Virus record (IMG/VR): IMGVR_UViG_3300014749_000039
Coordinates: 1 to 15,030 of that record
Length of the DNA stretch: 15,030 bases
Source of the DNA: a virus
Lineage: Duplodnaviria; Heunggongvirae; Uroviricota; Caudoviricetes
Reading direction: 5' to 3' (one strand)
The notes below the pieces were generated by a model. The model saw only the letters and a list, made by a program, of their open reading frames with translations, ran no database searches and was not told where the DNA came from. Below are positions 2-14,860 of this stretch, in pieces. A program made the translations under genes and the position numbers. The first letter of the stretch is position 1. Each line of letters starts with the position of its first letter.

Positions 2-952
2 AAAAAATGGCGACAAACCTATTTTTCCACGCCATCCAGCCTGACACACAGTGCTTATCCGTTCTGGTCCGGTGCGCTGTTCAACCGAGGGCGCAACAAA
101 GCCGATAAGGTGGACATCGACCTGTCCCACAGCAATCTGGCCCCCGGCCTGCTGTGCGCAGACGGGCAATACCGCCAGATAGTCACCGTGGAAGATGCGG
201 TGCGCGGCGGCTGTAACCTGTTCGACCTCGACCAGTTGCGCATGGAGTACAGCCCGGACGAATACCAGAACCTGCTGATGTGTGAGTTCGTGGACGATCT
301 CGCGTCTGTGTTCCCACTCAGCGAGCTGCAGGCGTGCATGGTGGACAGTTGGGAAGTCTGGACCGACTTTCATGCACTGGCCCTGCGCCCGTTTGGCTGG
401 CGCGAAGTGTGGATCGGTTATGACCCGGCAAAAGGTACGCAAAACGGCGACAGCGCCGGATGCGTGGTGGTGGCACCGCCAGCCGTGCCGGGTGGTAAGT
501 TCCGCATTCTTGAGCGTCACCAGTGGCGCGGAATGGACTTCCGCGCCCAGGCTGACGCCATCAAAAAACTGACCGAACAGTACAACGTGACCTATATCGG
601 TATCGACTCAACCGGCGTTGGTCACGGGGTTTACGAGAACGTGAAAGCGTTTTTTCCTGCCGTCCGGGAGTTTGTCTACAACCCCAACGTTAAAAACGCC
701 CTGGTACTCAAGGCCTACGACATTATCAGCCACCGCCGTCTGGAGTTTGACGCCGGACACACCGACATAGCGCAGTCCTTTATGGCAATCCGTCGCGCCA
801 CCACCGCCAGTGGCAACCGCCCGACCTATGAAGCCAGCCGCAGCGAAGAAGCCAGCCACGCCGATCTGGCCTGGGCAACGATGCACGCACTGTTTAACGA
901 ACCGCTGCAGGGCGAATCCGCCAATACCAGCAATATTGTGGAGATTTTTTGA
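2..952 (+). CDS. Terminase large (ATPase/nuclease) subunit, P2 gpP-like, C-terminal part; 5' end lies outside the window
   Basis: Reading frame is open from position 2 with no stop before the listed GTG at 110, so the ORF is truncated by the window edge. Translation resembles the C-terminal nuclease region of P2-family terminase large subunits, and the gene sits directly upstream of the portal gene as in the P2 P-Q operon. Confidence 0.7.
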   Translation, partial: KKWRQTYFSTPSSLTHSAYPFWSGALFNRGRNKADKVDIDLSHSNLAPGLLCADGQYRQIVTVEDAVRGGCNLFDLDQLRMEYSPDEYQNLLMCEFVDDLASVFPLSELQACMVDSWEVWTDFHALALRPFGWREVWIGYDPAKGTQNGDSAGCVVVAPPAVPGGKFRILERHQWRGMDFRAQADAIKKLTEQYNVTYIGIDSTGVGHGVYENVKAFFPAVREFVYNPNVKNALVLKAYDIISHRRLEFDAGHTDIAQSFMAIRRATTASGNRPTYEASRSEEASHADLAWATMHALFNEPLQGESANTSNIVEIF

Positions 953-1983
953 TGGGAAAGAGTAAGAAGAACCGCGCTGCGGCGACGAAACAGATCCAGC
1001 TTAAAAGTCAAACTACAGCCGAAGCATTCAGCTTCGGCGATCCCGTTCCTGTTCTGGACCGCCGAGAACTGCTGGATTATGTGGAATGCGTACAGATGGA
1101 CCGCTGGTATGAGCCGCCCGTCAGCTTTGACGGACTGTCGCGCACCTTCCGCGCTGCCGTTCATCATAGTTCCCCGATTGCAGTAAAGTGCAACATTCTG
1201 ACCAGCACCTACATCCCTCACCCGCTGCTCAGCCAGCAGGCTTTTTCGCGTTTTGTGCAGGACTATCTGGTATTTGGTAACGCCTACCTGGAGAAACGCA
1301 CGAACCGCTTCGGTGAAGTTATCGCCCTTGAACCTGCCTTGGCAAAATACACCCGACGCGGGTTAGACCTGGATACCTACTGGTTTGTGCAATACGGTAT
1401 GACCACGCAGCCATATCAGTTCACGAAAGGCAGCATCTTTCATCTGATGGAACCGGACATCAACCAGGAGATCTACGGCCTGCCCAGTTATCTTTCTGCT
1501 ATTCCATCCGCCCTGCTCAACGAGTCTGCCACGCTGTTCCGCCGCAAGTATTACATTAACGGCAGTCATGCAGGCTTCATCATGTATATGACCGACGCCG
1601 CGCAGAACCAGGAAGATGTGAACAACCTCCGCAACGCGATGAAAAGCGCCAAAGGCCCTGGCAACTTCCGCAACCTGTTTATGTACTCGCCTAACGGCAA
1701 AAAGGACGGGCTTCAGATCATCCCGTTGTCAGAAGTCGCAGCGAAAGATGAATTTCTGAACATCAAGAACGTGAGCCGGGACGACATGATGGCTGCACAC
1801 CGCGTACCGCCTCAGATGATGGGAATTTTGCCGAATAATGTTGGGGGGTTTGGTGATGTGGAAAAAGCAAGCAAAGTGTTTGTTAGAAATGAATTAATCC
1901 CATTGCAAAGAAGGATTCAAGAACTTAACGAATGGCTTAACATAGAAGTTATTATCTTTTCTCCATATAATTTATCCAATTGA
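952..1983 (+). CDS. Portal protein, P2 gpQ-like (alternative TTG start at 949)
   Basis: 343/344-aa ORF, the size of P2 portal. ATG at 952 overlaps the terminase stop TGA (950-952) as TGATG; GGAG at 940-943 as SD. The last ~40 codons (from ~1861) are markedly AT-rich compared with the rest of the gene. Confidence 0.7.
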   Translation: MGKSKKNRAAATKQIQLKSQTTAEAFSFGDPVPVLDRRELLDYVECVQMDRWYEPPVSFDGLSRTFRAAVHHSSPIAVKCNILTSTYIPHPLLSQQAFSRFVQDYLVFGNAYLEKRTNRFGEVIALEPALAKYTRRGLDLDTYWFVQYGMTTQPYQFTKGSIFHLMEPDINQEIYGLPSYLSAIPSALLNESATLFRRKYYINGSHAGFIMYMTDAAQNQEDVNNLRNAMKSAKGPGNFRNLFMYSPNGKKDGLQIIPLSEVAAKDEFLNIKNVSRDDMMAAHRVPPQMMGILPNNVGGFGDVEKASKVFVRNELIPLQRRIQELNEWLNIEVIIFSPYNLSN

Positions 1984-1990
1984 ATTTAAT

Positions 1991-2007
1991 GGGTAGTAAA
2001 ACTACCC
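1991..2007 (-). terminator. Short hairpin between convergent portal and DprA-like genes (possible bidirectional terminator)
   Basis: Perfect 7-bp inverted repeat GGGTAGT-aaa-ACTACCC immediately after the DprA-like stop codon (2009-2011); flanks are A/T-rich but there is no clean U-run. Confidence 0.3.
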
Positions 2008-2008
2008 A

Positions 2009-2971
2009 CTAAATCAGAAAGTGACTCATATTAGATCTATAAATATCAGAATTTATCTTAATTTTGCTTATTGACTCAGATATTACATTCATCAGTGAAT
2101 CATAGTCTTGACTAGTGCGCAAGGGATTAGCCAATTCATTATCAACAAGTTGTTGAGTTCCTTCGCAATTAAGTCCCAGTGGATTATCAGCCTTATGCGG
2201 TACAACAGCAAAAATAGGTCTTGCCGCTTTAATAGCAAAATCCGCCTGCGTCATTGTCCCACTATTTTTTGCTGCTTCGATTAGTATCGAAACTGCTGAT
2301 AAACCTACCTGGATTCTGTTGCGTTGCACAAATGACTGCTTGAATGCAGGCCTCCCTACAGGATACTCAGAAATCCAAGCCCCACCGTTAGATAAAATTT
2401 CATTTGCTAATCTAGCATTTTGTTTAGGCTTAGCGCTCTCTAAACCATGAGCTAATACAGCAATTGTTTTAGCACCTGCCTTAAGAGTTGCCTTGTGTGC
2501 ATTTGTATCAGTACCAATAGCTAGGCCGCTTACAATCACCACACCTCTTTCACAGATTTTCTTGGTAATTCTCTTCGTAATTTCTTCCCCTGCCATAGAA
2601 ACTTCACGAGAACCAACAATTGCAACTCCTGGCATCTCACTAAGAATATTTACGTCCCCCTTCAAATATAACATTGCTGGGGGATTTGGCGTAATTGCTA
2701 AACAAATAGGGTATTTAGCATCTCCAAAAGGAATTGGAACAATCCCCAATGATAAATGCTTGCTCAAATAGTCTTCAGCATTATGCAATGACGCTATAGA
2801 AAAGGTTGATTTTAAAATCCCGGCTGAATTAACACACTCAACCAATTCATATTCATCGGAAATAATATGGAATGGAATATCGTTAAATAATTTAAGCAAC
2901 CCTTGTTCTGATGCAAGTCTATCAACCTGTACCGATAGACCTAACAATATTTTGAATTGGGAAGGGTGCAT
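2009..2971 (-). CDS. DprA/Smf-like Rossmann-fold (SLOG-type) protein with ~100-aa N-terminal extension; second gene of the PRTase-DprA pair
   Basis: Translation contains the DprA core signature (VAIVGSREVS...VVIVSGLAIGTDTNAHKATLKAGAKTIAVLAHGLE...WISEYPVG...QRNRIQVGLS...IEAAKNSGTMTQADFAIKAARPIFAVVP). Start chosen at ATG 2969-2971, preceded by AGGAG; the listed ORF start at 2986 lacks an SD. Low GC. Confidence 0.75.
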   Translation of the reverse strand: MHPSQFKILLGLSVQVDRLASEQGLLKLFNDIPFHIISDEYELVECVNSAGILKSTFSIASLHNAEDYLSKHLSLGIVPIPFGDAKYPICLAITPNPPAMLYLKGDVNILSEMPGVAIVGSREVSMAGEEITKRITKKICERGVVIVSGLAIGTDTNAHKATLKAGAKTIAVLAHGLESAKPKQNARLANEILSNGGAWISEYPVGRPAFKQSFVQRNRIQVGLSAVSILIEAAKNSGTMTQADFAIKAARPIFAVVPHKADNPLGLNCEGTQQLVDNELANPLRTSQDYDSLMNVISESISKIKINSDIYRSNMSHFLI

Positions 2972-2975
2972 TATT

Positions 2976-3545
2976 TCACTCCTCATAATTAGCTGTTTCT
3001 AGTAACGCCAGTGGCAATATTGTCTTTGCGCCTGCATATCTTAACAGATAATAGCACGCCGTCATACTCCCCCCAGTTGTAGTAACATCATCAATAAGGA
3101 GAATAACCTTATCAGCCACATTGGATGTAACTCCGATTGTTGACATATGATGTTCGACAGAACGATCTCCGCCCCCCTTATGAGCACTCACTACTGTTGT
3201 TTTTCTCTGTAATGATTGGTTATATACAGCATTAGGAAATTTTTTCGCAATATCTTGCGCTATTTTTATTAAAGCTTGAGATACTTTTCCCTCAGCATGA
3301 GAAGGAACAATTGTTATCTCAAAGGGCACGTCGGTAAAAGCAACCCTACCAATCACATAGCTTTGGAGGCTAGAAGTTAAAAGTTGGGTAAAAATATTAA
3401 CAGCCTTTGCATACCCGGAATTTGAAGCGTCCTTCAAATCCATCATTGCCTTTGAAAGTCTATCCCCGGAACGAGGATTTCGCTCTCCTCGATATCGCCA
3501 AGGATGATATGTACCGCAAGAGTAAATTTTGATTGGCCCCATCAT
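2976..3545 (-). CDS. Phosphoribosyltransferase-domain protein (ComF/ComFC-like PRTase); first gene of the pair
   Basis: Classic PRPP-binding loop VILLIDDVTTTGGSM near the C-terminus. Stop TGA at 2976-2978 lies 4 nt upstream of the DprA-like start, so the two genes form a tight operon. Low GC. Confidence 0.75.
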   Translation of the reverse strand: MMGPIKIYSCGTYHPWRYRGERNPRSGDRLSKAMMDLKDASNSGYAKAVNIFTQLLTSSLQSYVIGRVAFTDVPFEITIVPSHAEGKVSQALIKIAQDIAKKFPNAVYNQSLQRKTTVVSAHKGGGDRSVEHHMSTIGVTSNVADKVILLIDDVTTTGGSMTACYYLLRYAGAKTILPLALLETANYEE

Positions 3546-3672
3546 TTTTCTGCGCCTTAAGAGTAGATATATCCATATTAAATGGATACTTACATCATTT
3601 ACAACCCAAAAAATGACACCAAGTTATCACTAATGACTTAGGTTCAAATGCCAAACTAACTCTCTGCGCGCG

Positions 3673-3691
3673 CTCGTATCCCCGCCACGCC
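3673..3691 (-). other. cos-like cohesive-end site of the P2/186 type
   Basis: Minus strand reads GGCGTGGCGGGGATACGAG; the first 13 nt match the start of the P2/186 19-nt cohesive end as I remember it (GGCG[A/T]GGCGGGGA...). It sits in a GC-rich patch between the portal-side cargo and the tum-like/A side, where cos lies in P2/186. Confidence 0.45.
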
Positions 3692-3736
3692 TGCCCGCTT
3701 TATGTAGTGGTTTTCATGCAGGTGCATGATCTACGC

Positions 3737-3764
3737 AAAAGCCCGCCAGTTCTGGCGGGCTTTA
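3737..3764. terminator. Stem-loop with short T/A runs on either side (possible bidirectional terminator near cos)
   Basis: AAAA-GCCCGCCA-gttc-TGGCGGGC-TTT: 8-bp GC-rich stem with 4-nt loop, flanked by AAAA upstream and TTT downstream. Confidence 0.35.
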
Positions 3765-4033
3765 GCAAAAACGATCCTCAAACGATCATGCAATCTCATG
3801 CAGCATAGACATGCACAGACGAGTAAAGCGAATCGGACTTTACGCAAGGTGAACTCCTCAGCGGGCATAATCAGTATGTCGGAAGATCTCTAAAAATGAA
3901 TAATTCGGTTAACAGGTATGCTTACAAAAGCATATATTTGATTAAAAATCATGTAAGGGGGAGGATCTCAAACTGAATCGCCACGGGTTTTACAAATTTC
4001 GATAGTCTCTCTAACGTTTCGGCTGAGGTCAAA

Positions 4034-4459
4034 ATGAAAAGCTTTTACGTATTAATTTTAATTCTGGTTGCAAGCTTTGTTAGCGTCCCAGTTCAGGCGG
4101 TAACAGCTAAAAACTATGAGAAAGGAACTAAAGCTCAACAGAAATCAATATCTTACCTTTCATGTGCATTCTATGGCAGTAGCACACAATTAGATCCTAG
4201 CTACACGGAGCAAGTACCTACAGCCGATATCAAGATATTACAGAAAGCAGCTTACCACGCTTACAACGATGCGCTCTCATACTTTGGTTATGAGGAACCA
4301 GATCACGAACAACGCATAATTGATTATGCTGAATTTGTGGCGTCGCAAGAAGCTGTGTTATGGGATAAACCAGGAATGAATGGAAAGCAGGTAACACTAA
4401 TTGCTCGTTCTCTCTACAATGAGAGTAACTGTAACTTGTTACTGGACTCAATTAAGTAG
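4034..4459 (+). CDS. Small secreted/periplasmic protein of unknown function (cargo gene next to cos)
   Basis: N-terminus MKSFYVLILILVASFVSVPVQA has a charged n-region, hydrophobic core and a VQA-V signal-peptidase-I-like site; no lipobox. SD GAGGT 5 nt upstream of the ATG. AT-rich relative to the phage core. Confidence 0.6.
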   Translation: MKSFYVLILILVASFVSVPVQAVTAKNYEKGTKAQQKSISYLSCAFYGSSTQLDPSYTEQVPTADIKILQKAAYHAYNDALSYFGYEEPDHEQRIIDYAEFVASQEAVLWDKPGMNGKQVTLIARSLYNESNCNLLLDSIK

Positions 4460-4618
4460 GAAAAAGATGGTATTTTGCCCGTAGTTTCAACCTTAATCTC
4501 CGAACCTGTCGCAGAACGGGCGTTCACTCATCAAATAAACGCCACACCTAACGCCTCACTGTACTCGTTGTTCAACCTTGCTGACGCCAGAAGCAATTTC
4601 AGACGCCAGCAACGTTTC

Positions 4619-4852
4619 TTAATGCAGCCAGCTGTCGTCTTCCCACACCTTCTGCATAATTTTCATCACTTGTTTTCTTTCTTCGTCCAGTTGCAGTCCG
4701 GTCAGTTCCACACCGTTAGAGCTACCTTTACGGATACGGATTACCGTTTTGGGATACAGGGGGCGCAGATTGCGGTAAAGCTCGGATTCAAGGGCGTCCA
4801 GGGTAGACTGGCTAATCTTCTGCTCTTTATCGATCATTATTTCAATGCGCAT
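4619..4852 (-). CDS. DinI-family protein
   Basis: Translation from internal ATG (4850-4852) begins MRIEIMIDKEQ... and aligns along its length with E. coli DinI (MRIEV..., ...WE..D.W at the C-terminus). GAGGTGA SD sits 8 nt upstream. The listed 101-aa ORF is an N-terminally over-extended version. Confidence 0.75.
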   Translation of the reverse strand: MRIEIMIDKEQKISQSTLDALESELYRNLRPLYPKTVIRIRKGSSNGVELTGLQLDEERKQVMKIMQKVWEDDSWLH

Positions 4853-4862
4853 AAAAGTCACC

Positions 4863-5051
4863 TCAGCTGATGACATCCATTGAGCGGTTGTATTCGTGGG
4901 TTCTGATTTTTGCCATGAGTTCATCAGTCAATTCAGAAACCCACTGCAGAGCCAGCCCCTTCTCTTCATCACTACACTCACTAGCCGCTACAAGCCTAAG
5001 AAAAAAATCAATGCGCTGGAGCTTCAAAGACTCCAAAAAATAGTCCTGCAT
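4863..5051 (-). CDS. 62-aa protein, first gene of the LexA-box operon; possible Tum-type antirepressor (function inferred from position only)
   Basis: Internal ATG at 5049-5051 is preceded by a strong SD AGGAGGAAAG; the listed 96-aa ORF start has none. Lies 10 nt upstream of the DinI-like gene and directly downstream of a LexA box. Confidence 0.55.
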   Translation of the reverse strand: MQDYFLESLKLQRIDFFLRLVAASECSDEEKGLALQWVSELTDELMAKIRTHEYNRSMDVIS

Positions 5052-5092
5052 CTTTCCTCCTATGACACCACACGCAACACTGTATGTATAAC

Positions 5093-5112
5093 CACTGTTT
5101 ATATTTACAGTA
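5093..5112. promoter_or_regulatory. LexA (SOS) box upstream of the 62-aa/DinI-like operon
   Basis: CACTGTTTATATTTACAGTA has the CTGT-N8-ACAG pattern with an AT-rich spacer, a near-consensus match, and overlaps AT-rich promoter-like sequence about 40 nt upstream of the operon start. Confidence 0.7.
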
Positions 5113-5204: not shown

Positions 5205-7619
5205 TTAATACAGGTTCCGCCACTGATCATCTTCCTGCAAACGCTGGTTCCGATAGAAGATACGCAGGCCTGCTCCTGACGGAATACTGCCTCCGCGAAG
5301 GAGTAAATCGACCTCTTTCTCGCTGCCATCAAATCCTCTGGACTTCAGCTCATACACGAGCTGCAGTCGCTGATGGTCTGTAATTCGCTGTTTGTAGTCT
5401 TTACGCCGTTTCGGTTTCACCAGGCGTAACCTTGCTGCCAGTTCCCGGCGCTCTTTTTTGCTCATACTGTGCAGGTAATCGTGCAACTCCTTGTCATCCA
5501 TGCGGGTAATGTCCGTCCTGGTATCCCCATCAGCTGATTTATCTTTCCCTTGTTGGTTCAAATTTTCAGCAAGGGGACAGTTATTGCCACGAGTCCAAGG
5601 GGCGCAAGCGCCCTGGTCGGCTGCCGCCTCCTGAACGTCAACGGCTTTACGAACCATTTTCCACTTCACTGCATGAGTGCAGATCTTGCCCTCTGCAATG
5701 GGTGACCAGATGCCATAAATACGAATACCGTGATCGCCATAGGCGGTCGGCTCTTCGTTGATTTCATAAGCGGTTCTGATGAGGTGATATTTACGGGGAA
5801 CCAGTACGCCGCCCTGCTTCATGATGTAGGTGGCAAAGCAACCAGCATCAGCTGCAGCCAGAATGGCATCAAGGCGCGGGTTATCCAGTACCGGCGCACC
5901 TGCTTTTTTGTCACCCTGTTGCCTTGCCGCCTGACCAGCCAGCAATCGCAGTTCACGGTAAGCCTGACGCCCCGGAATGCCAAAGAAGCGGAATTGCTGA
6001 ACACGATGCAGAGACGCCCAGGCATTAACGTATTCAGCGTTATCACGCAGAGATTTACCCGTTTCCTTGCTGATCTCGCCAGCCAGACCACGCCCGTCAA
6101 TGTTCTTACTGATATATTTCGCGATGTAGCTTGTCGGCGTTCCTTTGCGCGGGTTAATCAACTCAGACTTAAAGCGCGGCCCAGTGTTATTGCCCAGCTC
6201 CTCGCGGTCTTCACGGATGGCAAACTTACGCAGTAATGCAGTGATGGCGCGGCGGTCTTTTTTGCGCATAAAACACAACAGGTGCCAGTGAACTGTACCG
6301 TCATGATGCGGCTCAGCCACCCGCACGCCATACCAGCGCAATCCGGCTTTGTGCATCGCCTTACGAAATGCAGCAAACATGCCGACCAGATAGTCGCTGC
6401 TTTGTCTTACCGTCGAGTTTGTCCAGGTCGGGTTGGGTCTGCCGTTATTGAGCGTGGAATGGAAACGCGACGGACAGGTGATAGTGTAGAAAACGGCGCA
6501 GTCACCGCGCATTTCCGCGATAAGCTCCAGACCTTTAACACAGGCCATCATCTCATTGCGGCGATGCGCCGGGTTGCTGCTGCTGGCGTTTACCACATCT
6601 TCCATATCCAGCGTGTCGCCGTCTTCGTTCACCAGTTCATGAGAACGGAAAAACTCCAGCGACTTACGGCGCTGCTCACGTTTATGCATCACGGCTTCAT
6701 AGCTGACATAGGGGGATGCTTTTTTGCTGACCAGGCAGACAGCACGCAACTGCTCTTCCCGCCATTCGCAACGCATCTTCCATAATTTCCGATACCACCA
6801 GTCGGCACACAACATACGCGCCAGCGAACCCGGAATGAGTTCATAGGGCACGGGTTTACGGCGGTTTCTTTTCCGACGGAGTTGCTCAAACGCAGGCGGA
6901 ATAACATCCAGACGCAGGGTTTCCGCTGCCACCTTTTCCCATGTTTTGCGGATTTCTTCTGGCTTAACGTCATCGGTGGCATACAAATCACCACAAGCGG
7001 CATCAAGGCACATGCTCATATGCGCAGCGACAAGGGTAGACAGGCGTTTCACCTGATCCTGACTCATTTCAGGCAGGATAAGCAGGCCATCCAGCCCTTC
7101 ATGGCTTGCCATAAAGCGAAAAGAAGTGGATAGCTGACAGTCGCGGACATGCTCCAGTCGTTCCAGACATGGCTTAATCGTCTCACGCAAATAGCGGGAA
7201 TAAGCCTTTGGCCTGCCCAGGCTGCTGAAATATTCAATACGTTGCATCAGCGGCTTGCTGATATGGGAAGGCTGGGCGTTGACGTCAGCCAGAATGACCA
7301 TGTCCGGATTAAAACGCTGCTGCTCATGCGCCAGCTTTGCCCGGCTAATGAGCTTATCCTGCTCCATTTCGCGCTGGACAGGATCACGGGATTCATTAAA
7401 GAAATAACGCTCCCAGACCTGATCACTCAGTGCCTCGCGGCGCAGTTGTTCCTGCTCGTTATCGGCAGCGTACAGAGTGATCAGGTTTGAAAGTGCAGAA
7501 ACCGGCGCAACTTCCGCCGGGTCCAGATAAGGGTTAATGGCCTTTTTTGGGCTGTTCCATGAGAATGCTGCGGCGACCTCGTTAAAGCCGCTGCAGTTGT
7601 TCATATCAGCATGGCTCAT
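5205..7619 (-). CDS. Rolling-circle replication initiation endonuclease, P2/186 gpA-like
   Basis: ~800-aa protein with an HUH-type motif ([10 protein letters not shown]) and a twin-tyrosine motif ([10 protein letters not shown]) typical of superfamily I rolling-circle initiators. Start chosen at ATG 7617-7619, which overlaps the Dam stop as ATGA; the listed ORF begins at an upstream TTG (7646). Confidence 0.8.
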
Positions 7620-9428: not shown

Positions 9429-9653
9429 CTATCGCTCTTTGTTCTTACGGTAACGCTCAAGAGGAGATATATTTTTTCGTATCATCTCTTTAACCTGCTC
9501 TCCCCGTAAAAACGTCCCATCCTTTAGCGTGAAAAAGTAACTGCCATCGCCCGACAACGACGGATAACAACAGAGCAAATCATCTTCAGATACTGAATAA
9601 CTCTCCCCTCTGTAACGAAACTGATAAACCACTTCACTTTCCGCTGCATACAT
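9429..9653 (-). CDS. Hypothetical early protein (74 aa)
   Basis: ATG at 9651-9653 with GGAGAAAG SD 6 nt upstream; overlaps the upstream ORF by 130 nt in another frame. Confidence 0.45.
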   Translation of the reverse strand: MYAAESEVVYQFRYRGESYSVSEDDLLCCYPSLSGDGSYFFTLKDGTFLRGEQVKEMIRKNISPLERYRKNKER

Positions 9654-9820
9654 TTTGACTTTCTCCGTATCCCCGTGGTCAATTCAGACAGCAATTCATC
9701 TTGTGAACGGCACGGATGCCAGCGTTTACCATCCTCACCCATGATCCAGCCGTGACCGTAGTGCATTGCCGGGCTTTGTTTTACCAGCAGCGATGCAAAT
9801 GATGGTTCTTTCGTCAGCAT
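9524..9820 (-). CDS. Hypothetical protein immediately downstream of cII (99 aa as written; C-terminal third looks like out-of-frame translation)
   Basis: ATG at 9818-9820 with SD GAGGTG overlapping the cII stop. The N-terminal ~50 aa look protein-like; the remainder is Cys/Arg-rich and overlaps the next gene. Confidence 0.4.
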   Translation of the reverse strand: MLTKEPSFASLLVKQSPAMHYGHGWIMGEDGKRWHPCRSQDELLSELTTGIRRKSKCMQRKVKWFISFVTEGRVIQYLKMICSVVIRRCRAMAVTFSR

Positions 9821-12758: not shown

Positions 12759-14492
12759 CTACTCAAGAAGATATTCTAACTCATCTTTTATCGGGATAAC
12801 TTGCTCATAAAGTCGGTGATATGACTTCCCAATTGCGCCTCTGAATTGTATTAACTTTGGTGGCTTGTTACCTATATTAATAATATGGTCTTGAGCTATA
12901 CCTGGGTAGGGATCAATAAATACAATTTCAGATATACCTAACTGATAAGCTTTTTTCGCACACAGCTCACAGGGACTGGCAGTTGTATATAACCTCCCCC
13001 CCTGAACGCCAATGCCACCATATTTTGCAAGTTGTAAAAATGCGTTTTCCTCAGCATGTAATGCACGTGTATGAACTTGATTACCTTTTTTATCTTTATC
13101 AAGATCATTATGTATATCTTTAAAACAATAAGATAAGTTCCTGCCTCTATAAATATCACCAGTTTTATCTATCGCCCTAAAATTTAATAGTTTCTCATTA
13201 GCTTTAATTCTGAAAGAACTATTATTTCTCTCATAATGACTGTACACTTTTTCATCAAAGTCGTTCATTAGGCCATCTAGCGATCTCATAGAGCAAGGAA
13301 TCTGACCGTTGGCGACATCATTCCAACCCACTGATTTTATTGAGTTTTCACCATCAGTTACTACAGCTCCCACCTGTCTAGATATACAACCAGAGTTTAA
13401 TTTTACCGTATACGCAACTTGCATAACCCTTTCCATTGCAGTAGGTGTTATCAGACCAGGATGCTTCATCAGTGCGATGTACCACGCTAATTGTGCTTTT
13501 AAAATATTGTCATTATCAAATTCATTTTTTGGGTTAAAAATGTGTATATCTGATAGTTCAATGCATTTAGTTACATTTGGATTAGTGAGATGTTTGTAAG
13601 AGTTATCACCTTTACCTGACTCTACAGAATCTATTTCCTCTATCTGCTTTTCAGAAAACTTATGTAGTTTCCGCAAATAGTTTGTTCGATGTTCATCTGG
13701 GGCATTTATTGACATTAAATGAAATGCAGAATATCTATCCTTAAAAAATTTTGCTTCATATGGATTTCTAATAGCATCTATGACAATTAATGCGTTATCT
13801 CTTTTGCTTTTTCTTATTAATTTAATAACCCTATTAATAGTTTCCGGCAAATGAAAAACAGATTTAGGTATAAACTCTTTATCTTCAAAATCGACTTCAA
13901 TACGCCCACGGCGTCTAATTGACTTACCTGCTAACTGATAGACTGAAACATATAAATTTGAGTTTATCGCATTTAGTTCAGCTTTGAATTCCTTAGTAAA
14001 TTTTCTAACTAACCTCAAAATTGATATAAATTTATTAATCGTTTTTTCATTAAGCTTCAATTCACTATTATGATCAAGCAAATTCTCAATTACATTTTTA
14101 AATCTTGTTAAAATGAGATTATCTGAAAATACACCAAAAGTTAATACATTATCTAAATGCTCTTTACTGATAGATTTATTAGATGATAGAATAAACTCAG
14201 AAGCTTCTTCAACTGTTAACATCAAAAGATACGCTGAGATTAGGTCACTCACCTTAATTGAGTAAAAATTTTCCCAGTGATTTTCTGCGAATTTTTTAAC
14301 TATATTATAACGATGGACATCCAATCCCTTGTAAAAACCCTGTAATTTACTTACATCAGGGAAGACTGTTTTTTCGTTTTCAAGAATATTAGCTGTTGTT
14401 GTGCAACCAGAACCAGTTCGACCTGTCAAACCGACTAAAATAAACTGCCCATTTTCAAGGAAAAGCTCACTAACGAATTTTTTTTCTTTCAT
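12759..14492 (-). CDS. P-loop kinase-like + deoxycytidylate/cytidine deaminase fusion protein (AvcD / defensive dCTP-deaminase-like)
   Basis: N-terminal nucleotide-binding loop LVGLTGRTGSGCTTT and C-terminal zinc-deaminase motifs HAEENAFLQ...PCELCAKKAYQLGISEIVF (H[AC]E...PCxxC). Very AT-rich gene in an AT-rich islet between int and the ssrA fragment. First codon is GTG (14493-14495) or ATG at 14490-14492. Confidence 0.75.
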   Translation of the reverse strand: MKEKKFVSELFLENGQFILVGLTGRTGSGCTTTANILENEKTVFPDVSKLQGFYKGLDVHRYNIVKKFAENHWENFYSIKVSDLISAYLLMLTVEEASEFILSSNKSISKEHLDNVLTFGVFSDNLILTRFKNVIENLLDHNSELKLNEKTINKFISILRLVRKFTKEFKAELNAINSNLYVSVYQLAGKSIRRRGRIEVDFEDKEFIPKSVFHLPETINRVIKLIRKSKRDNALIVIDAIRNPYEAKFFKDRYSAFHLMSINAPDEHRTNYLRKLHKFSEKQIEEIDSVESGKGDNSYKHLTNPNVTKCIELSDIHIFNPKNEFDNDNILKAQLAWYIALMKHPGLITPTAMERVMQVAYTVKLNSGCISRQVGAVVTDGENSIKSVGWNDVANGQIPCSMRSLDGLMNDFDEKVYSHYERNNSSFRIKANEKLLNFRAIDKTGDIYRGRNLSYCFKDIHNDLDKDKKGNQVHTRALHAEENAFLQLAKYGGIGVQGGRLYTTASPCELCAKKAYQLGISEIVFIDPYPGIAQDHIINIGNKPPKLIQFRGAIGKSYHRLYEQVIPIKDELEYLLE

Positions 14493-14687
14493 CACGTCCC
14501 ACTTATGAATGTAAGAATATTCAACATATTAATTATAATTTATTAACTCATTTTGTTCTAGATACTTGATGTAATGGCGGCACTTTGGCGACGGAGCATT
14601 AAAAACGCGTAAGACGAGCAAATACAACAAAACACTAACACATTGTTTTTAAATATAAATAGCTGTTTTTACTATACTAAAAATGGT

Positions 14688-14732
14688 ATGTAGGAATTTC
14701 GGACGCGGGTTCAACTCCCGCCAGCTCCACCA
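14688..14732 (+). other. ssrA: Partial tmRNA (ssrA) 3' end, ~45 nt ending in CCA: probable attachment-site repeat
   Basis: ATGTAGGAATTTCGGACGCGGGTTCAACTCCCGCCAGCTCCACCA matches my recollection of the E. coli tmRNA 3' terminus (T-arm GCGGG/CCCGC, acceptor strand, CCA). Sequence immediately upstream is AT-rich and not tmRNA-like, so this is a fragment and not a gene. Confidence 0.6.
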
Positions 14733-14860
14733 ATCATGATTGGACGGTGTAAGGACAACACCAACAAAAACAGGAAGTTAGAAGTCTCAGCAAAACACCG
14801 ACCAGACGGTGAGGAGACATAAAAGGATACGCAAAGGAGCCGCGGCTCCTGGTAACATGA

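What the first reader, a model, noticed from the sequence alone, without database searches (positions are those of the whole stretch)
3673..3691. cos-like site separates two independent cargo slots
The minus-strand 19-mer GGCGTGGCGGGGATACGAG resembles the P2/186 cohesive end at its first 13 positions but diverges in the last six. If it is the functional cos, cargo sits on both sides: the PRTase/DprA pair on the portal side, and the secreted protein plus the LexA-controlled operon on the replication side. The divergent 3' half may reflect a terminase specificity variant.
Basis: partly seen in the sequence, partly recalled or inferred. Interest (0 to 1): 0.4.

Follow-up and report, generated by a model that had tools for sequence, protein, structure and literature searches.

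The report
Known cos site of Fels-2-type prophage
This 19-base sequence is the real DNA-packaging cut site (cos) of a Fels-2-type, P2-like prophage of E. coli; it has been published and physically mapped in a sister phage with an identical cutting enzyme, and the variable defence-gene slots on either side are a described hotspot, so the finding is correct but ordinary.

Summary
The minus strand of window 3691..3673 reads GGCGTGGCGGGGATACGAG, matching the 186/PSP3 cohesive end at 15/19 positions (13/13 at the start) and P2 at 14/19. It is not a divergent oddity. It is 19/19 identical to the cos of Fels-2, SEN8 and the E. coli HS prophage. In HS the ends were mapped by read-start analysis/PhageTerm, and HS large terminase is 100% identical to the part encoded in the window. 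The 19-mer lies in a sharply bounded 148-bp cos block (3666..3813) homologous to P2/186/P4 cos. Both flanks are variable: 83 related loci show 36 replication-side states, 57 portal-side states and 76 combinations. "Two independent slots" therefore holds, but the LexA-controlled DinI/TumB operon is conserved backbone, not cargo. The portal-side pair is ShosTA (DprA+PRTase), and this exact locus is catalogued in Rousset et al. 2022. Both slots were described before. The terminase-specificity idea stays open: cos type co-segregates with terminase clade in enterics, and none of 146 Psu-type P4 satellites carries this 3' half, but terminases only 52-61% identical use the same 19-mer. Verdict: already known, low interest.

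The parts
3673..3691 (-). 19-nt cohesive-end sequence (cosN equivalent) GGCGTGGCGGGGATACGAG. Predicted nicks: top strand between 3692 and 3691, bottom strand between 3673 and 3672.
   Evidence: Sequence read. 19/19 identical to SEN8 positions 1-19 'putative cos site', to Fels-2 and to the PhageTerm/start-site-mapped cos of the E. coli HS phage. SEN8 and EtG records end exactly at the base corresponding to window 3692.
3666..3813 (-). Complete conserved cos block, -122..+25 relative to the first base of the 19-mer. Its two edges are the inner borders of the two cargo slots.
   Evidence: Per-position conservation over 133 distinct sequences from 143 loci collapses outside -122 and +25. BLAST hits in phages and in 1278/5426 E. 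coli genomes cover only this block. The block aligns with P2, 186, PSP3, Fels-2 and SEN8 cos regions.
3666..3672 (-). CGCGCGC flank immediately 3' of the 19-mer (TGCGCGC in P2/186/P4); context of the bottom-strand nick.
   Evidence: At least 95% conserved in all four groups compared; alignment; nick contexts.
3692..3700 (-). AAGCGGGCA flank immediately 5' of the 19-mer; context of the top-strand nick.
   Evidence: Conserved in P2, 186, PSP3, P4-like satellites and the Fels-2 type.
3714..3729 (.). Palindromic pair of TGCATGA motifs followed by AAAACC; candidate terminase (gpM) recognition element. That role is an inference.
   Evidence: Inverted repeat I4. ATGCAnnTGCAT(G/T)AAAACC is at least 95% conserved in all cos types, including P4-like satellites.
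3735..3766 (.). GC-rich hairpin (15-nt arms, 93% complementary) with a T-run on the minus strand. It sits where 186 has terminator t95b and probably stops tum-operon transcription before cos.
   Evidence: Inverted repeat I1. 186 annotates t95b 160-190 bp from its right end. An equivalent inverted repeat is present in P2-type, 186-type and P4-like cos regions.
3784..3816 (-). Three further TGCATG(A) repeats at the distal end of the cos block.
   Evidence: Direct repeat family D1 and inverted pairs I2, I5 and I6; conserved in all cos types.
2..952 (+). C-terminal 316 aa of terminase large subunit gpP (nuclease domain), the enzyme that cuts cos.
   Evidence: Pfam Terminase_6C 4e-50. 100% identical to E. 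coli HS and KK19-02 gpP WP_001098431.1. Full-length gpP is 97.4% identical to Fels-2 and about 63% to P2/186.
949..1983 (+). Portal protein gpQ; outer border of the portal-side slot.
   Evidence: Pfam Phage_portal; RefSeq 'phage portal protein'.
1984..3665 (.). Portal-side (cosL-Q) cargo slot, here filled by ShosTA.
   Evidence: In relatives the distance from cos to the gpQ stop ranges from about 150 to 3526 bp. The slot is empty in 14/111 loci, with 57 distinct states among the 83 loci where both slots are readable. P2 and 186 have it empty.
2976..3545 (-). ShosT-like phosphoribosyltransferase (toxin/effector of the ShosTA defence pair).
   Evidence: PADLOC ShosT 3e-18; Pfam Pribosyltran. RefSeq WP_016245841 is listed in the gpA-gpQ locus table of Rousset 2022.
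2009..2986 (-). ShosA-like DprA/SLOG protein (RefSeq start at 2971).
   Evidence: PADLOC ShosA 9e-70; Pfam DNA_processg_A 9e-60. A DprA+PRTase system from this hotspot was validated against T7 and lambda.
3814..4618 (.). Replication-side (A-cosR, 'TO-region' equivalent) cargo slot, here filled by one ORF.
   Evidence: In relatives the distance from TumB to the cos block ranges from about 40 to 3389 bp. The slot is empty in 44/126 loci, with 36 distinct states among the 83 loci where both slots are readable. It holds old/tin in P2 and orf97 in 186.
4034..4459 (+). 141-aa ORF with an N-terminal signal-peptide-like sequence (MKSFYVLILILVASFVSVPVQA); function unknown; the actual replication-side cargo.
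   Evidence: Translation. phrog_7437 4e-99, unknown function; no Pfam or PADLOC hit. Seen with at least 3 different portal-side cargos. RefSeq WP_000834899.
4619..4852 (-). TumB/DinI-family protein; conserved backbone, not cargo.
   Evidence: Pfam DinI 1e-22; 78% identical to PSP3 TumB; present at the same position in most related loci.
4863..5051 (-). 62-aa ORF in the tumA position; conserved backbone.
   Evidence: phrog_698 7e-38. Found in nearly all related loci. No BLASTP similarity to PSP3 TumA.
5093..5112 (-). LexA box TACTGTAAATATAAACAGTG (CTGT-N8-ACAG) in the promoter of the 62-aa ORF/TumB operon.
   Evidence: Sequence. It is positionally equivalent to the annotated LexA site in p95 of 186.
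5205..7619 (-). Replication endonuclease gpA; outer backbone on the replication side.
   Evidence: Pfam Phage_GPA 9e-127; RefSeq coordinates.

Best explanation
The 19-mer is the cohesive-end site (cos) of an apparently intact, Fels-2-type (Felsduovirus-like) P2-family prophage integrated at ssrA in E. coli. It is the core of a 148-bp cos module (window 3666..3813). The module contains five TGCATGA repeats, a GC-rich hairpin, the motif TGCATGAAAACC, AAGCGGGCA, the 19-mer and CGCGCGC. After induction, the phage terminase (small subunit gpM plus large subunit gpP) is expected to bind this module, and the gpP nuclease domain nicks the two strands 19 nt apart. That produces a linear genome with 5'-protruding GGCGTGGCGGGGATACGAG ends. 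The left end then starts next to ShosT-ShosA-gpQ and the right end finishes next to the secreted-type ORF, the tum operon and gpA. Because the module is conserved while the DNA on each side is not, it separates two accessory-gene slots. Each slot is bracketed by conserved sequence: gpQ and cos on one side, cos and tumB on the other. Each can therefore be replaced by homologous recombination without touching the other. Shown here: the identity of the site, its block structure, its position, the variability and independent assortment of both flanks, and the identity of the cargo. Shown in the literature for an identical 19-mer with an identical gpP: that virion ends lie here. Inferred: the exact nick positions in this prophage, gpM binding to the TGCAT repeats, the terminator role of the hairpin, and recombination at the cos block as the cause of slot independence.
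For: The 19-mer is identical to the SEN8 annotated/published cos and to Fels-2. E. coli HS phage cos 5'-GGCGTGGCGGGGATACGAG-3' at 926016-926034 was determined by start-site analysis/PhageTerm after mitomycin C induction. I confirmed the position in the HS genome, that the HS cos block is near-identical, that HS gpP is 100% identical to the window's 316 aa, and that gpM is 98.6% identical between HS and KK19-02. The SEN8 and EtG records end exactly at the predicted nick, and fiAA91-ss annotates the homologous stretch as cosR. The alignment with the mapped cos regions of P2, 186 and PSP3 shows the same architecture and the same orientation towards gpQ. The prophage in the 99.7% identical genome KK19-02 has all packaging, head, tail, lysis and regulatory genes and 46-bp att repeats 34,745 bp apart. 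There is only one cos-like site in the whole prophage. All 105 classifiable IMG/VR contigs and 38 GTDB loci with the exact 19-mer have the order gpA - tum - variable - cos - variable - gpQ - gpP. Slots: 36 x 57 states give 76 combinations in 83 loci. Near-identical backbones carry swapped cargo.
Against: The ends were not mapped for this particular prophage. The SEN8 cos was called by annotation, not by experiment. PhageTerm/start-site mapping in HS is read-based rather than direct end sequencing. Inducibility of this prophage is unknown, and a Fil-family gene is annotated as truncated in KK19-02, although that gene is not a packaging function. Roles assigned to the TGCAT repeats and the hairpin rest on conservation and on analogy with lambda cosB and 186 t95b only.
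Confidence: 0.93

Rival explanations
1. Terminase-specificity variant. The ACGAG-type 3' half, together with linked changes in the block, makes this cos cleavable only by Fels-2-clade terminase. That would define a packaging-specificity group separate from P2/186/P4.
For: gpP and gpM of the window phage are 97% and 94.5% identical to Fels-2 but only about 63% and 42% identical to P2/186, whereas P2 and 186 gpP share 88%. Among enteric loci, cos type and gpP nuclease-domain clade co-segregate without exception: at least 83% identity to the window for this type, 61-71% for P2/186 types. P4-like satellites make up 21/120 and 2/120 of contigs with P2-type and 186-type 19-mers but 0/120 and 0/54 with this 19-mer. 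All 146 Psu-bearing satellite loci have ...AGCA(C/T) 3' halves.
Against: The evidence is purely correlative, because cos and terminase are tightly linked genes that would co-segregate by descent anyway. Chitinimonas (gpP 61% identical) and Pasteurella testudinis (52%) carry the identical 19-mer, so the 19-mer does not track terminase sequence. P2, 186 and the satellites already tolerate changes at positions 5, 13, 14 and 19. The satellite samples are biased towards close relatives of P4 Psu and were capped at 80-120 loci. Specificity could equally lie in the TGCAT repeats and gpM rather than in the overhang.
Confidence: 0.35
2. Relic site. The 19-mer is a true cos by descent, but this prophage is defective and no longer cuts or packages at it.
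For: Inducibility was not tested here. One regulatory-region gene (Fil family) is annotated as truncated in KK19-02 and CV839-06.
Against: All packaging and morphogenesis genes are full length in the 99.7% identical prophage. gpP is 100% identical to that of the inducible HS phage. The cos block shows no degradation relative to the consensus. The LexA box, the tum operon, CI, Cox/Apl-like excisionase and the integrase are all present.
Confidence: 0.05
3. Chance GC-rich resemblance to P2/186 cos with no packaging role.
For: With up to 3 mismatches the 13-mer alone is not rarer than chance in the window: 4 hits against 2.5 expected.
Against: The exact 19-mer is embedded in a 148-bp block homologous to mapped cos regions, at the canonical gpQ-gpA position, in 143 related loci. 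Genuine chance hits in GTDB (4 of 54) lack that context.
Confidence: 0.01

Closest known systems
cos of Fels-2 / SEN8 / the inducible E. coli HS P2-like prophage (Felsduovirus type)
   Same: 19/19 identical cohesive-end sequence, near-identical 148-bp block, same position between gpQ and the tum-gpA region, and the same terminase clade (gpP 97-100%, gpM 94.5-98.6%).
   Different: Only the cargo in the two flanking slots differs. Fels-2 has a 565-aa ORF and STM2726. SEN8 has a hypothetical protein plus an HNH endonuclease on one side and a DNA-binding protein on the other. HS has a 463-aa and a 225-aa hypothetical protein.
cos of P2, 186, PSP3 and satellite P4 (19-nt 5' cohesive ends; 55-bp conserved core of Ziermann & Calendar 1990, as cited in PMC3931495 and PMC5694545)
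   Same: Same overhang length, the same GGCG(A/T)GGCGGGGA start, the same flanks AAGCGGGC(A/G) and (T/C)GCGCGC, the same TGCAT repeats and hairpin, and the same orientation towards the portal gene.
   Different: Positions 14, 16, 17 and 19 of the overhang differ (TACGAG against AAGCA[C/T]), as do the first base after the overhang (C against T) and TGCATG against TGCATT. The terminase is only about 63% (gpP) and 42% (gpM) identical. No Psu-type P4 satellite was found with this variant.
P2-like gpA-gpQ defence hotspot (Rousset et al. 2022), made of the classical TO region (tin/old, A-cosR) and the cosL-Q insertion site (Dodd & Egan 1996; Nakayama 1999, as cited in PMC5694545)
   Same: Variable accessory or defence genes lie directly next to cos between gpA and gpQ. 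The window's own proteins (WP_016245841, WP_016245842, WP_000834899, WP_001217575) appear in that paper's locus table, and a DprA+PRTase system from this hotspot was validated.
   Different: Rousset et al. treat gpA-gpQ as one hotspot. In this lineage the portal-side half is the more often filled one (87% against 65%), whereas P2 itself has cargo only on the replication side.
Lambda cos (cosQ-cosN-cosB)
   Same: Works alike: a staggered-nick site flanked on one side by repeated terminase-binding elements, giving 5' cohesive ends.
   Different: Lambda has a 12-nt overhang, unrelated sequence, unrelated terminase small subunit and IHF dependence. No homology is claimed; this comparison rests on general knowledge and was not tested here.
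ShosTA toxin-antitoxin/defence pair (PRTase + DprA-like SLOG protein)
   Same: Two-gene PRTase-then-DprA operon with strong PADLOC ShosA/ShosT matches.
   Different: ShosT here is 189 aa against a 237-position profile (matched 52-211). Defence activity of this allele was not tested.

Membership tests
P2-family cos site | 19-nt GC-rich cohesive-end sequence beginning GGCG(A/T)GGCGGGG | tested here: met
   Exact sequence at 3691..3673. 15/19 identical to 186/PSP3, 14/19 to P2, 19/19 to Fels-2/SEN8/HS.
P2-family cos site | Conserved core flanking the overhang (the roughly 55-bp region shared by P2, P4, 186 and PSP3) | tested here: met
   TGCAT(G/T)AAAACC...AAGCGGGC(A/G) + 19-mer + (T/C)GCGCGC aligns without gaps. 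It is at least 95% conserved in each group. The 55-bp definition is taken from secondary citations; the original paper was not readable here.
P2-family cos site | Located between the portal gene Q and the right-end accessory/replication genes, with the overhang reading towards Q | tested here: met
   Gene order gpA - tum - cos - gpQ - gpP in the window and in 143 related loci. The orientation is the same as in P2, 186 and PSP3.
P2-family cos site | Cognate gpP/gpM terminase encoded by the same element | tested here: met
   The gpP C-terminus is in the window. Full gpP and gpM are present in the 99.7% identical KK19-02 prophage.
P2-family cos site | Terminase cleavage here yields 19-nt 5' overhangs on virion DNA | not testable with these tools
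   Not measured for this prophage. Read-start/PhageTerm mapping gives this exact 19-mer for the E. coli HS phage, whose gpP is identical.
Felsduovirus-type (Fels-2-like) P2-family phage | Structural and terminase proteins closest to Fels-2; 186-like SOS-inducible regulatory module; integration at ssrA | tested here: met
   gpP 97.4%, gpM 94.5%, gpN 88.3% and gpQ 83.8% identical to Fels-2. CI, CII, Cox-like protein, LexA box and TumB are present. A 46-bp repeat of the ssrA 3' end flanks the prophage.
P2 gpA-gpQ defence hotspot | Hypervariable gene content between conserved gpA and gpQ, including known defence systems | tested here: met
   76 combinations in 83 loci. ShosTA is present here. The locus proteins are listed in the table of Rousset 2022.
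ShosTA defence system | Adjacent PRTase (ShosT) and DprA-like (ShosA) genes matching the family profiles | tested here: met
   PADLOC ShosA 9e-70 and ShosT 3e-18. The ORFs from the six-frame ORF list overlap by 11 bp (2976..2986); with the RefSeq DprA start at 2971 the genes are adjacent with a 4-bp gap.
ShosTA defence system | Protects against phage; toxin neutralised by antitoxin | not testable with these tools
   Only literature evidence for a homologous DprA+PRTase system, active against T7 and lambda.
186/PSP3-type tum SOS operon | LexA box in the promoter, followed by an antirepressor and a DinI-like gene, downstream of gene A | tested here: inconclusive
   The LexA box CTGT-N8-ACAG is present. 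The DinI/TumB homologue is 78% identical to PSP3 TumB. The 62-aa ORF in the tumA position has no detectable similarity to PSP3 TumA, so antirepressor identity is only positional.

The most novel reading that the evidence does not exclude
The ...TACGAG cos type marks a packaging-specificity group distinct from the ...AAGCA(C/T) group of P2, 186 and P4. Fels-2-type phages, present in roughly a quarter of complete E. coli genomes, would then be invisible to canonical Psu/Sid P4-like satellites, and any satellites that exploit them must carry the matching cos, as the P4-integrase-bearing element next to this 19-mer in Chitinimonas may do. Cos-type switching would be a helper-side escape route from satellite piracy.
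Probability: 0.2. Interest if true: 0.5.

Novelty: already known. Interest (0 to 1): 0.1.

Why it matters
For annotation, it fixes the virion genome ends of this prophage and splits the known gpA-gpQ hotspot into two separately exchangeable slots, with defined inner borders at window 3666 and 3813. That is useful for mining defence genes in Fels-2-type prophages. Nothing here changes current understanding. The cos sequence, its physical mapping in a sister phage, the hotspot, the ShosTA/DprA-PRTase system and even this exact gene arrangement are all in the literature. The only open question with some interest is whether the two cos types are functionally incompatible, and so partition helpers and satellites.

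Tried and rejected
(1) Chance match: rejected.

(2) A better cos elsewhere in the prophage: none.

(3) 'The LexA operon is cargo': rejected, because it is conserved backbone.

(4) 'The 3' half is a recent divergence': rejected. The same or a nearly identical 3' half occurs in Smp131, SEN4/5, Chitinimonas and Pasteurella.

(5) 'This cos type is free of satellites': could not be established. Canonical P4 markers were absent, but the samples are capped and biased. L417 (Chitinimonas) has a P4-type integrase, defence-like cargo and weak alpha/delta-like hits next to the 19-mer. Its psu-position ORF is not Psu-like, so the element stays unclassified.

(6) L043, a 13.5-kb contig that might have been a satellite, is a lambdoid RecE/RecT fragment with an orphan 19-mer in poor context. 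L012 is a P2-like remnant.

(7) Technical slip: the TumB query used started one base late (4851 instead of 4852). It was therefore an out-of-frame translation. It still served as a positional DNA-homology marker, but its percent identities are not protein identities. This was corrected.

(8) The original Ziermann & Calendar 1990 paper was not available, so the 55-bp core is cited second-hand.

(9) The protein-database, structure-prediction and Rfam tools were not used, because nothing in the question depended on them.

Full report
OBSERVATION. The + strand of window 3673..3691 is CTCGTATCCCCGCCACGCC, so the minus strand reads GGCGTGGCGGGGATACGAG, as reported. The annotated cohesive ends of the reference phages were read from their records: P2 is GGCGAGGCGGGGAAAGCAC, and 186 and PSP3 are GGCGTGGCGGGGAAAGCAT. 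The window matches 186/PSP3 at 15/19 positions (1-13, 15 and 18) and P2 at 14/19. The 13-mer with up to 3 mismatches is not rare by itself (4 hits, 2.5 expected). However, the exact site is unique in the window and in the whole prophage.

WHAT IT IS. The window is a P2-family prophage of E. coli, 99.7% identical to strain KK19-02, shown in the reverse of the usual P2 map. The order is: gpP C-terminus (2..952), gpQ portal (949..1983), DprA-like and PRTase genes (2009..3545, minus strand), the 19-mer, a 141-aa ORF (4034..4459), a DinI/TumB gene and a 62-aa ORF behind a LexA box (4619..5112, minus strand), gpA (5205..7619), Dam methylase, CII, a Cox-like protein, CI, and integrase.

BLAST of the intergenic region against phage genomes finds only a block of about 150 bp (window about 3665..3816) at 91-97% identity in Fels-2, RE2010, SEN8 and many Klebsiella and E. 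coli P2-like phages. The flanks do not match. The SEN8 and EtG records end exactly at the base corresponding to window 3692. SEN8 starts with the identical 19-mer, annotated 'putative cos site', and fiAA91-ss annotates the homologous stretch as cosR.

A joined-ends alignment with P2, 186, PSP3, Fels-2 and SEN8 shows one shared architecture: distal TGCAT repeats, a GC-rich inverted repeat, ATGCAnnTGCAT(G/T)AAAACC, AAGCGGGC(A/G), the 19-mer, and (T/C)GCGCGC. Fels-2 and SEN8 are 19/19 identical to the window.

PHYSICAL EVIDENCE FROM THE LITERATURE. The SEN8 genome announcement prints ggcgtggcggggatacgag as its cos (PMC5427200). More importantly, Supplementary Table 4 of PMC8008629 lists the cos of the mitomycin-C-induced E. 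coli HS prophage as 5'-GGCGTGGCGGGGATACGAG-3' at 926016-926034, determined by start-site analysis/PhageTerm. I fetched that region. The 19-mer is at 926016, and the cos block is nearly identical to the window's from about -123 to +26. HS gpP (WP_001098431.1) is identical to KK19-02 gpP and to all 316 aa encoded in the window, and gpM is 98.6% identical between HS and KK19-02. The KK19-02 prophage has full-length P, Q, O, N, M and L genes, plus tail, lysis and ogr genes. It is bounded by 46-bp repeats of the ssrA 3' end that lie 34,745 bp apart. The packaging system therefore looks intact.

EXTENT AND ANATOMY OF THE COS MODULE. Exact-19-mer scans returned 120 IMG/VR contigs (capped) and 54 species-representative genome loci. 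Of the 54, four lack any cos context, which matches the roughly 4 chance hits expected in 596 Gb. All other hits have the cos context. Per-position conservation over 133 distinct sequences is high from -122 to +25 relative to the first base of the 19-mer and collapses immediately outside. That corresponds to window 3666..3813. Inside the block are five TGCATGA motifs (3714-3720 and 3723-3729 as a palindrome, then 3786-3792, 3796-3802 and 3810-3816) and a hairpin with 15-nt arms at 3735..3766. The hairpin sits where 186 annotates terminator t95b. The same elements are conserved in P2-type, 186-type and P4-satellite cos regions. That the TGCAT repeats bind gpM, and that the hairpin stops tum-operon transcription before cos, are inferences from conservation and analogy.

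TWO SLOTS. All 105 classifiable IMG/VR contigs and 38 GTDB loci have the order gpA - 62-aa ORF/TumB - variable - cos - variable - gpQ - gpP.
- The portal-side interval ranges from about 150 bp (empty, as in P2 and 186) to 3.5 kb. It is empty in 14/111 loci.
- The replication-side interval ranges from about 40 bp to 3.4 kb. It is empty in 44/126 loci.
- After clustering the inserts, 83 loci with both sides readable show 36 replication-side states, 57 portal-side states and 76 combinations.
- The window's replication-side ORF occurs with three different portal-side cargos, and ShosTA occurs with three different replication-side states. The window's own pairing recurs in L056.
- Near-identical E. 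coli backbones confirm recent swaps. GDAR2-2 keeps both cos-flanking cargos but has another gene between int and att. CV839-06 keeps the backbone and the dCTP deaminase but has three unrelated ORFs on the portal side and nothing on the replication side.

So 'two independent slots separated by cos' is correct. The most economical explanation is that the conserved cos block gives each slot its own pair of homology arms. This is an inference, because breakpoints were not mapped.

The LexA-controlled operon is not cargo. TACTGTAAATATAAACAGTG (5112..5093) precedes a 62-aa ORF and a DinI-family gene that is 78% identical to PSP3 TumB. The arrangement matches the p95/LexA/tum module of 186 and tumA-tumB of PSP3, and it is present in almost every relative. 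The 62-aa ORF has no detectable similarity to PSP3 TumA, so its antirepressor role is only positional. The true replication-side cargo is the 141-aa ORF alone. It has a signal-peptide-like N-terminus, matches phrog_7437 of unknown function, and has no Pfam or PADLOC hit.

CARGO IDENTITY AND PRIOR KNOWLEDGE. The portal-side pair matches PADLOC ShosA (9e-70) and ShosT (3e-18). Rousset et al. 2022 described the gpA-gpQ, cos-proximal locus of P2-like phages as a defence hotspot and validated a DprA+PRTase system from it against T7 and lambda. Their locus table lists the very proteins found here: WP_016245841, WP_016245842, WP_000834899 and WP_001217575. The portal-side position (cosL-Q) was proposed as a foreign-gene hotspot long ago (Dodd & Egan 1996; Nakayama 1999, as cited in PMC5694545), and the replication-side position is the classical tin/old region of P2. 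A 2026 survey again treats gpA-gpQ as the main P2 hotspot and also notes an int-att hotspot.

TERMINASE SPECIFICITY. In favour:
- gpP and gpM are 97.4% and 94.5% identical to Fels-2 but about 63% and 42% identical to P2/186, while P2 and 186 gpP share 88%.
- Across 79 loci with this 19-mer and 140 with P2- or 186-type 19-mers, the gpP nuclease-domain clade and the cos type co-segregate perfectly among enterics.
- P4-like satellites account for 21/120 P2-type and 2/120 186-type contigs, but for none of the 174 loci with this 19-mer.
- All 146 Psu-bearing satellite loci with a detectable cos have ...AGCA(C/T).

Against:
- cos and terminase are closely linked, so they would co-segregate by descent anyway.
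- Chitinimonas (gpP 61% identical) and Pasteurella testudinis (52%) carry the identical 19-mer. Smp131 of Stenotrophomonas has 18/19. The overhang type is therefore ancient and is not tied to terminase sequence.
- The satellite samples are capped and dominated by close relatives of P4.
- One Chitinimonas locus (L417) looks satellite-like: a P4-type integrase, DUF4062 plus AAA-ATPase cargo, then cos. It lacks a recognisable Psu.

The idea remains plausible but untested. I put it at about 0.35 for any specificity difference, and about 0.2 for the stronger reading that this insulates Fels-2-type phages from canonical P4 satellites.

VERDICT. The site, its mapping, the hotspot and the cargo are already published. 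Novelty: already known. Interest: low.

Noticed in passing
window 12759-14495 (minus strand), with the att repeat at 14688-14733: A 578-aa P-loop + dCMP-deaminase protein (PADLOC dCTP-deaminase defence, 3e-145; RefSeq 'anti-phage dCTP deaminase') lies between the integrase and the 46-bp ssrA-derived att repeat. It is therefore inside the prophage, in a third (int-att) cargo slot. GDAR2-2 has a different 363-aa gene there.
   Followed up: partly
L373, L374, L378, L379, L403 (Chitinimonas sp. BJB300); L382, L406, L417 (C. taiwanensis): These betaproteobacterial genomes carry 3-5 copies each of the exact enteric 19-mer with recognisable but diverged cos context. Only one copy (L379) sits next to a recognisable gpQ/gpP (61-71% identity). 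L417 has a P4-type integrase, DUF4062 and AAA-ATPase genes beside it. This suggests several elements, perhaps satellites, sharing one cos in one genome.
   Followed up: partly
L132-L371 and L431-L590 (IMG/VR and metagenome loci): Psu-bearing P4-like satellites carry several overhang variants (AAAGCAC, AAAGCAT, AGAGCAT, GGAGCAT; position 5 A/T/G), but all 146 keep AGCA(C/T) at positions 15-19. None has the ACGAG type.
   Followed up: partly
L393 (Pasteurella testudinis DSM 23072): The identical 19-mer sits next to a gpP nuclease domain that is only 52% identical to the window's.
   Followed up: no
L084: 3447-3465 (minus strand) and 6704-6722 (plus strand): A 16-kb metagenomic viral contig holds two complete cos sites with full context, in inverted orientation, 3.2 kb apart. 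This could be an assembly chimera or two adjacent elements.
   Followed up: no
L043: 1475-1493: The exact 19-mer plus CGCGCGC occurs, with poor upstream context, inside a lambdoid (RecE/RecT, YdaT, DnaC-like) prophage fragment next to a DndB-like gene. It is an orphan cos fragment outside any P2-like element.
   Followed up: partly
window 3735-3766: The GC-rich hairpin inside the cos block is conserved as an inverted repeat in Fels-2-type, P2-type, 186-type and P4-satellite cos regions, although its sequence differs between them. That hints at a structural or terminator role that is part of cos function.
   Followed up: partly
window 4863-5051 (minus strand): The 62-aa ORF between the LexA box and TumB is conserved across the lineage (phrog_698) but has no detectable similarity to PSP3 TumA. 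If it is the SOS antirepressor of Fels-2-type phages, it is a different protein.
   Followed up: partly
window about 9600-9750 (minus strand): RefSeq annotates a truncated Fil-family (filamentation) gene at this position in KK19-02 and CV839-06. GDAR2-2 and E. coli HS have it intact.
   Followed up: no
window 3560-3900, used as the query: The cos block is found by megablast in 1278 of 5426 complete E. coli genomes (up to 3 places per genome; 9 places on plasmids). Fels-2-type and related cos modules are therefore very common in the species.
   Followed up: no
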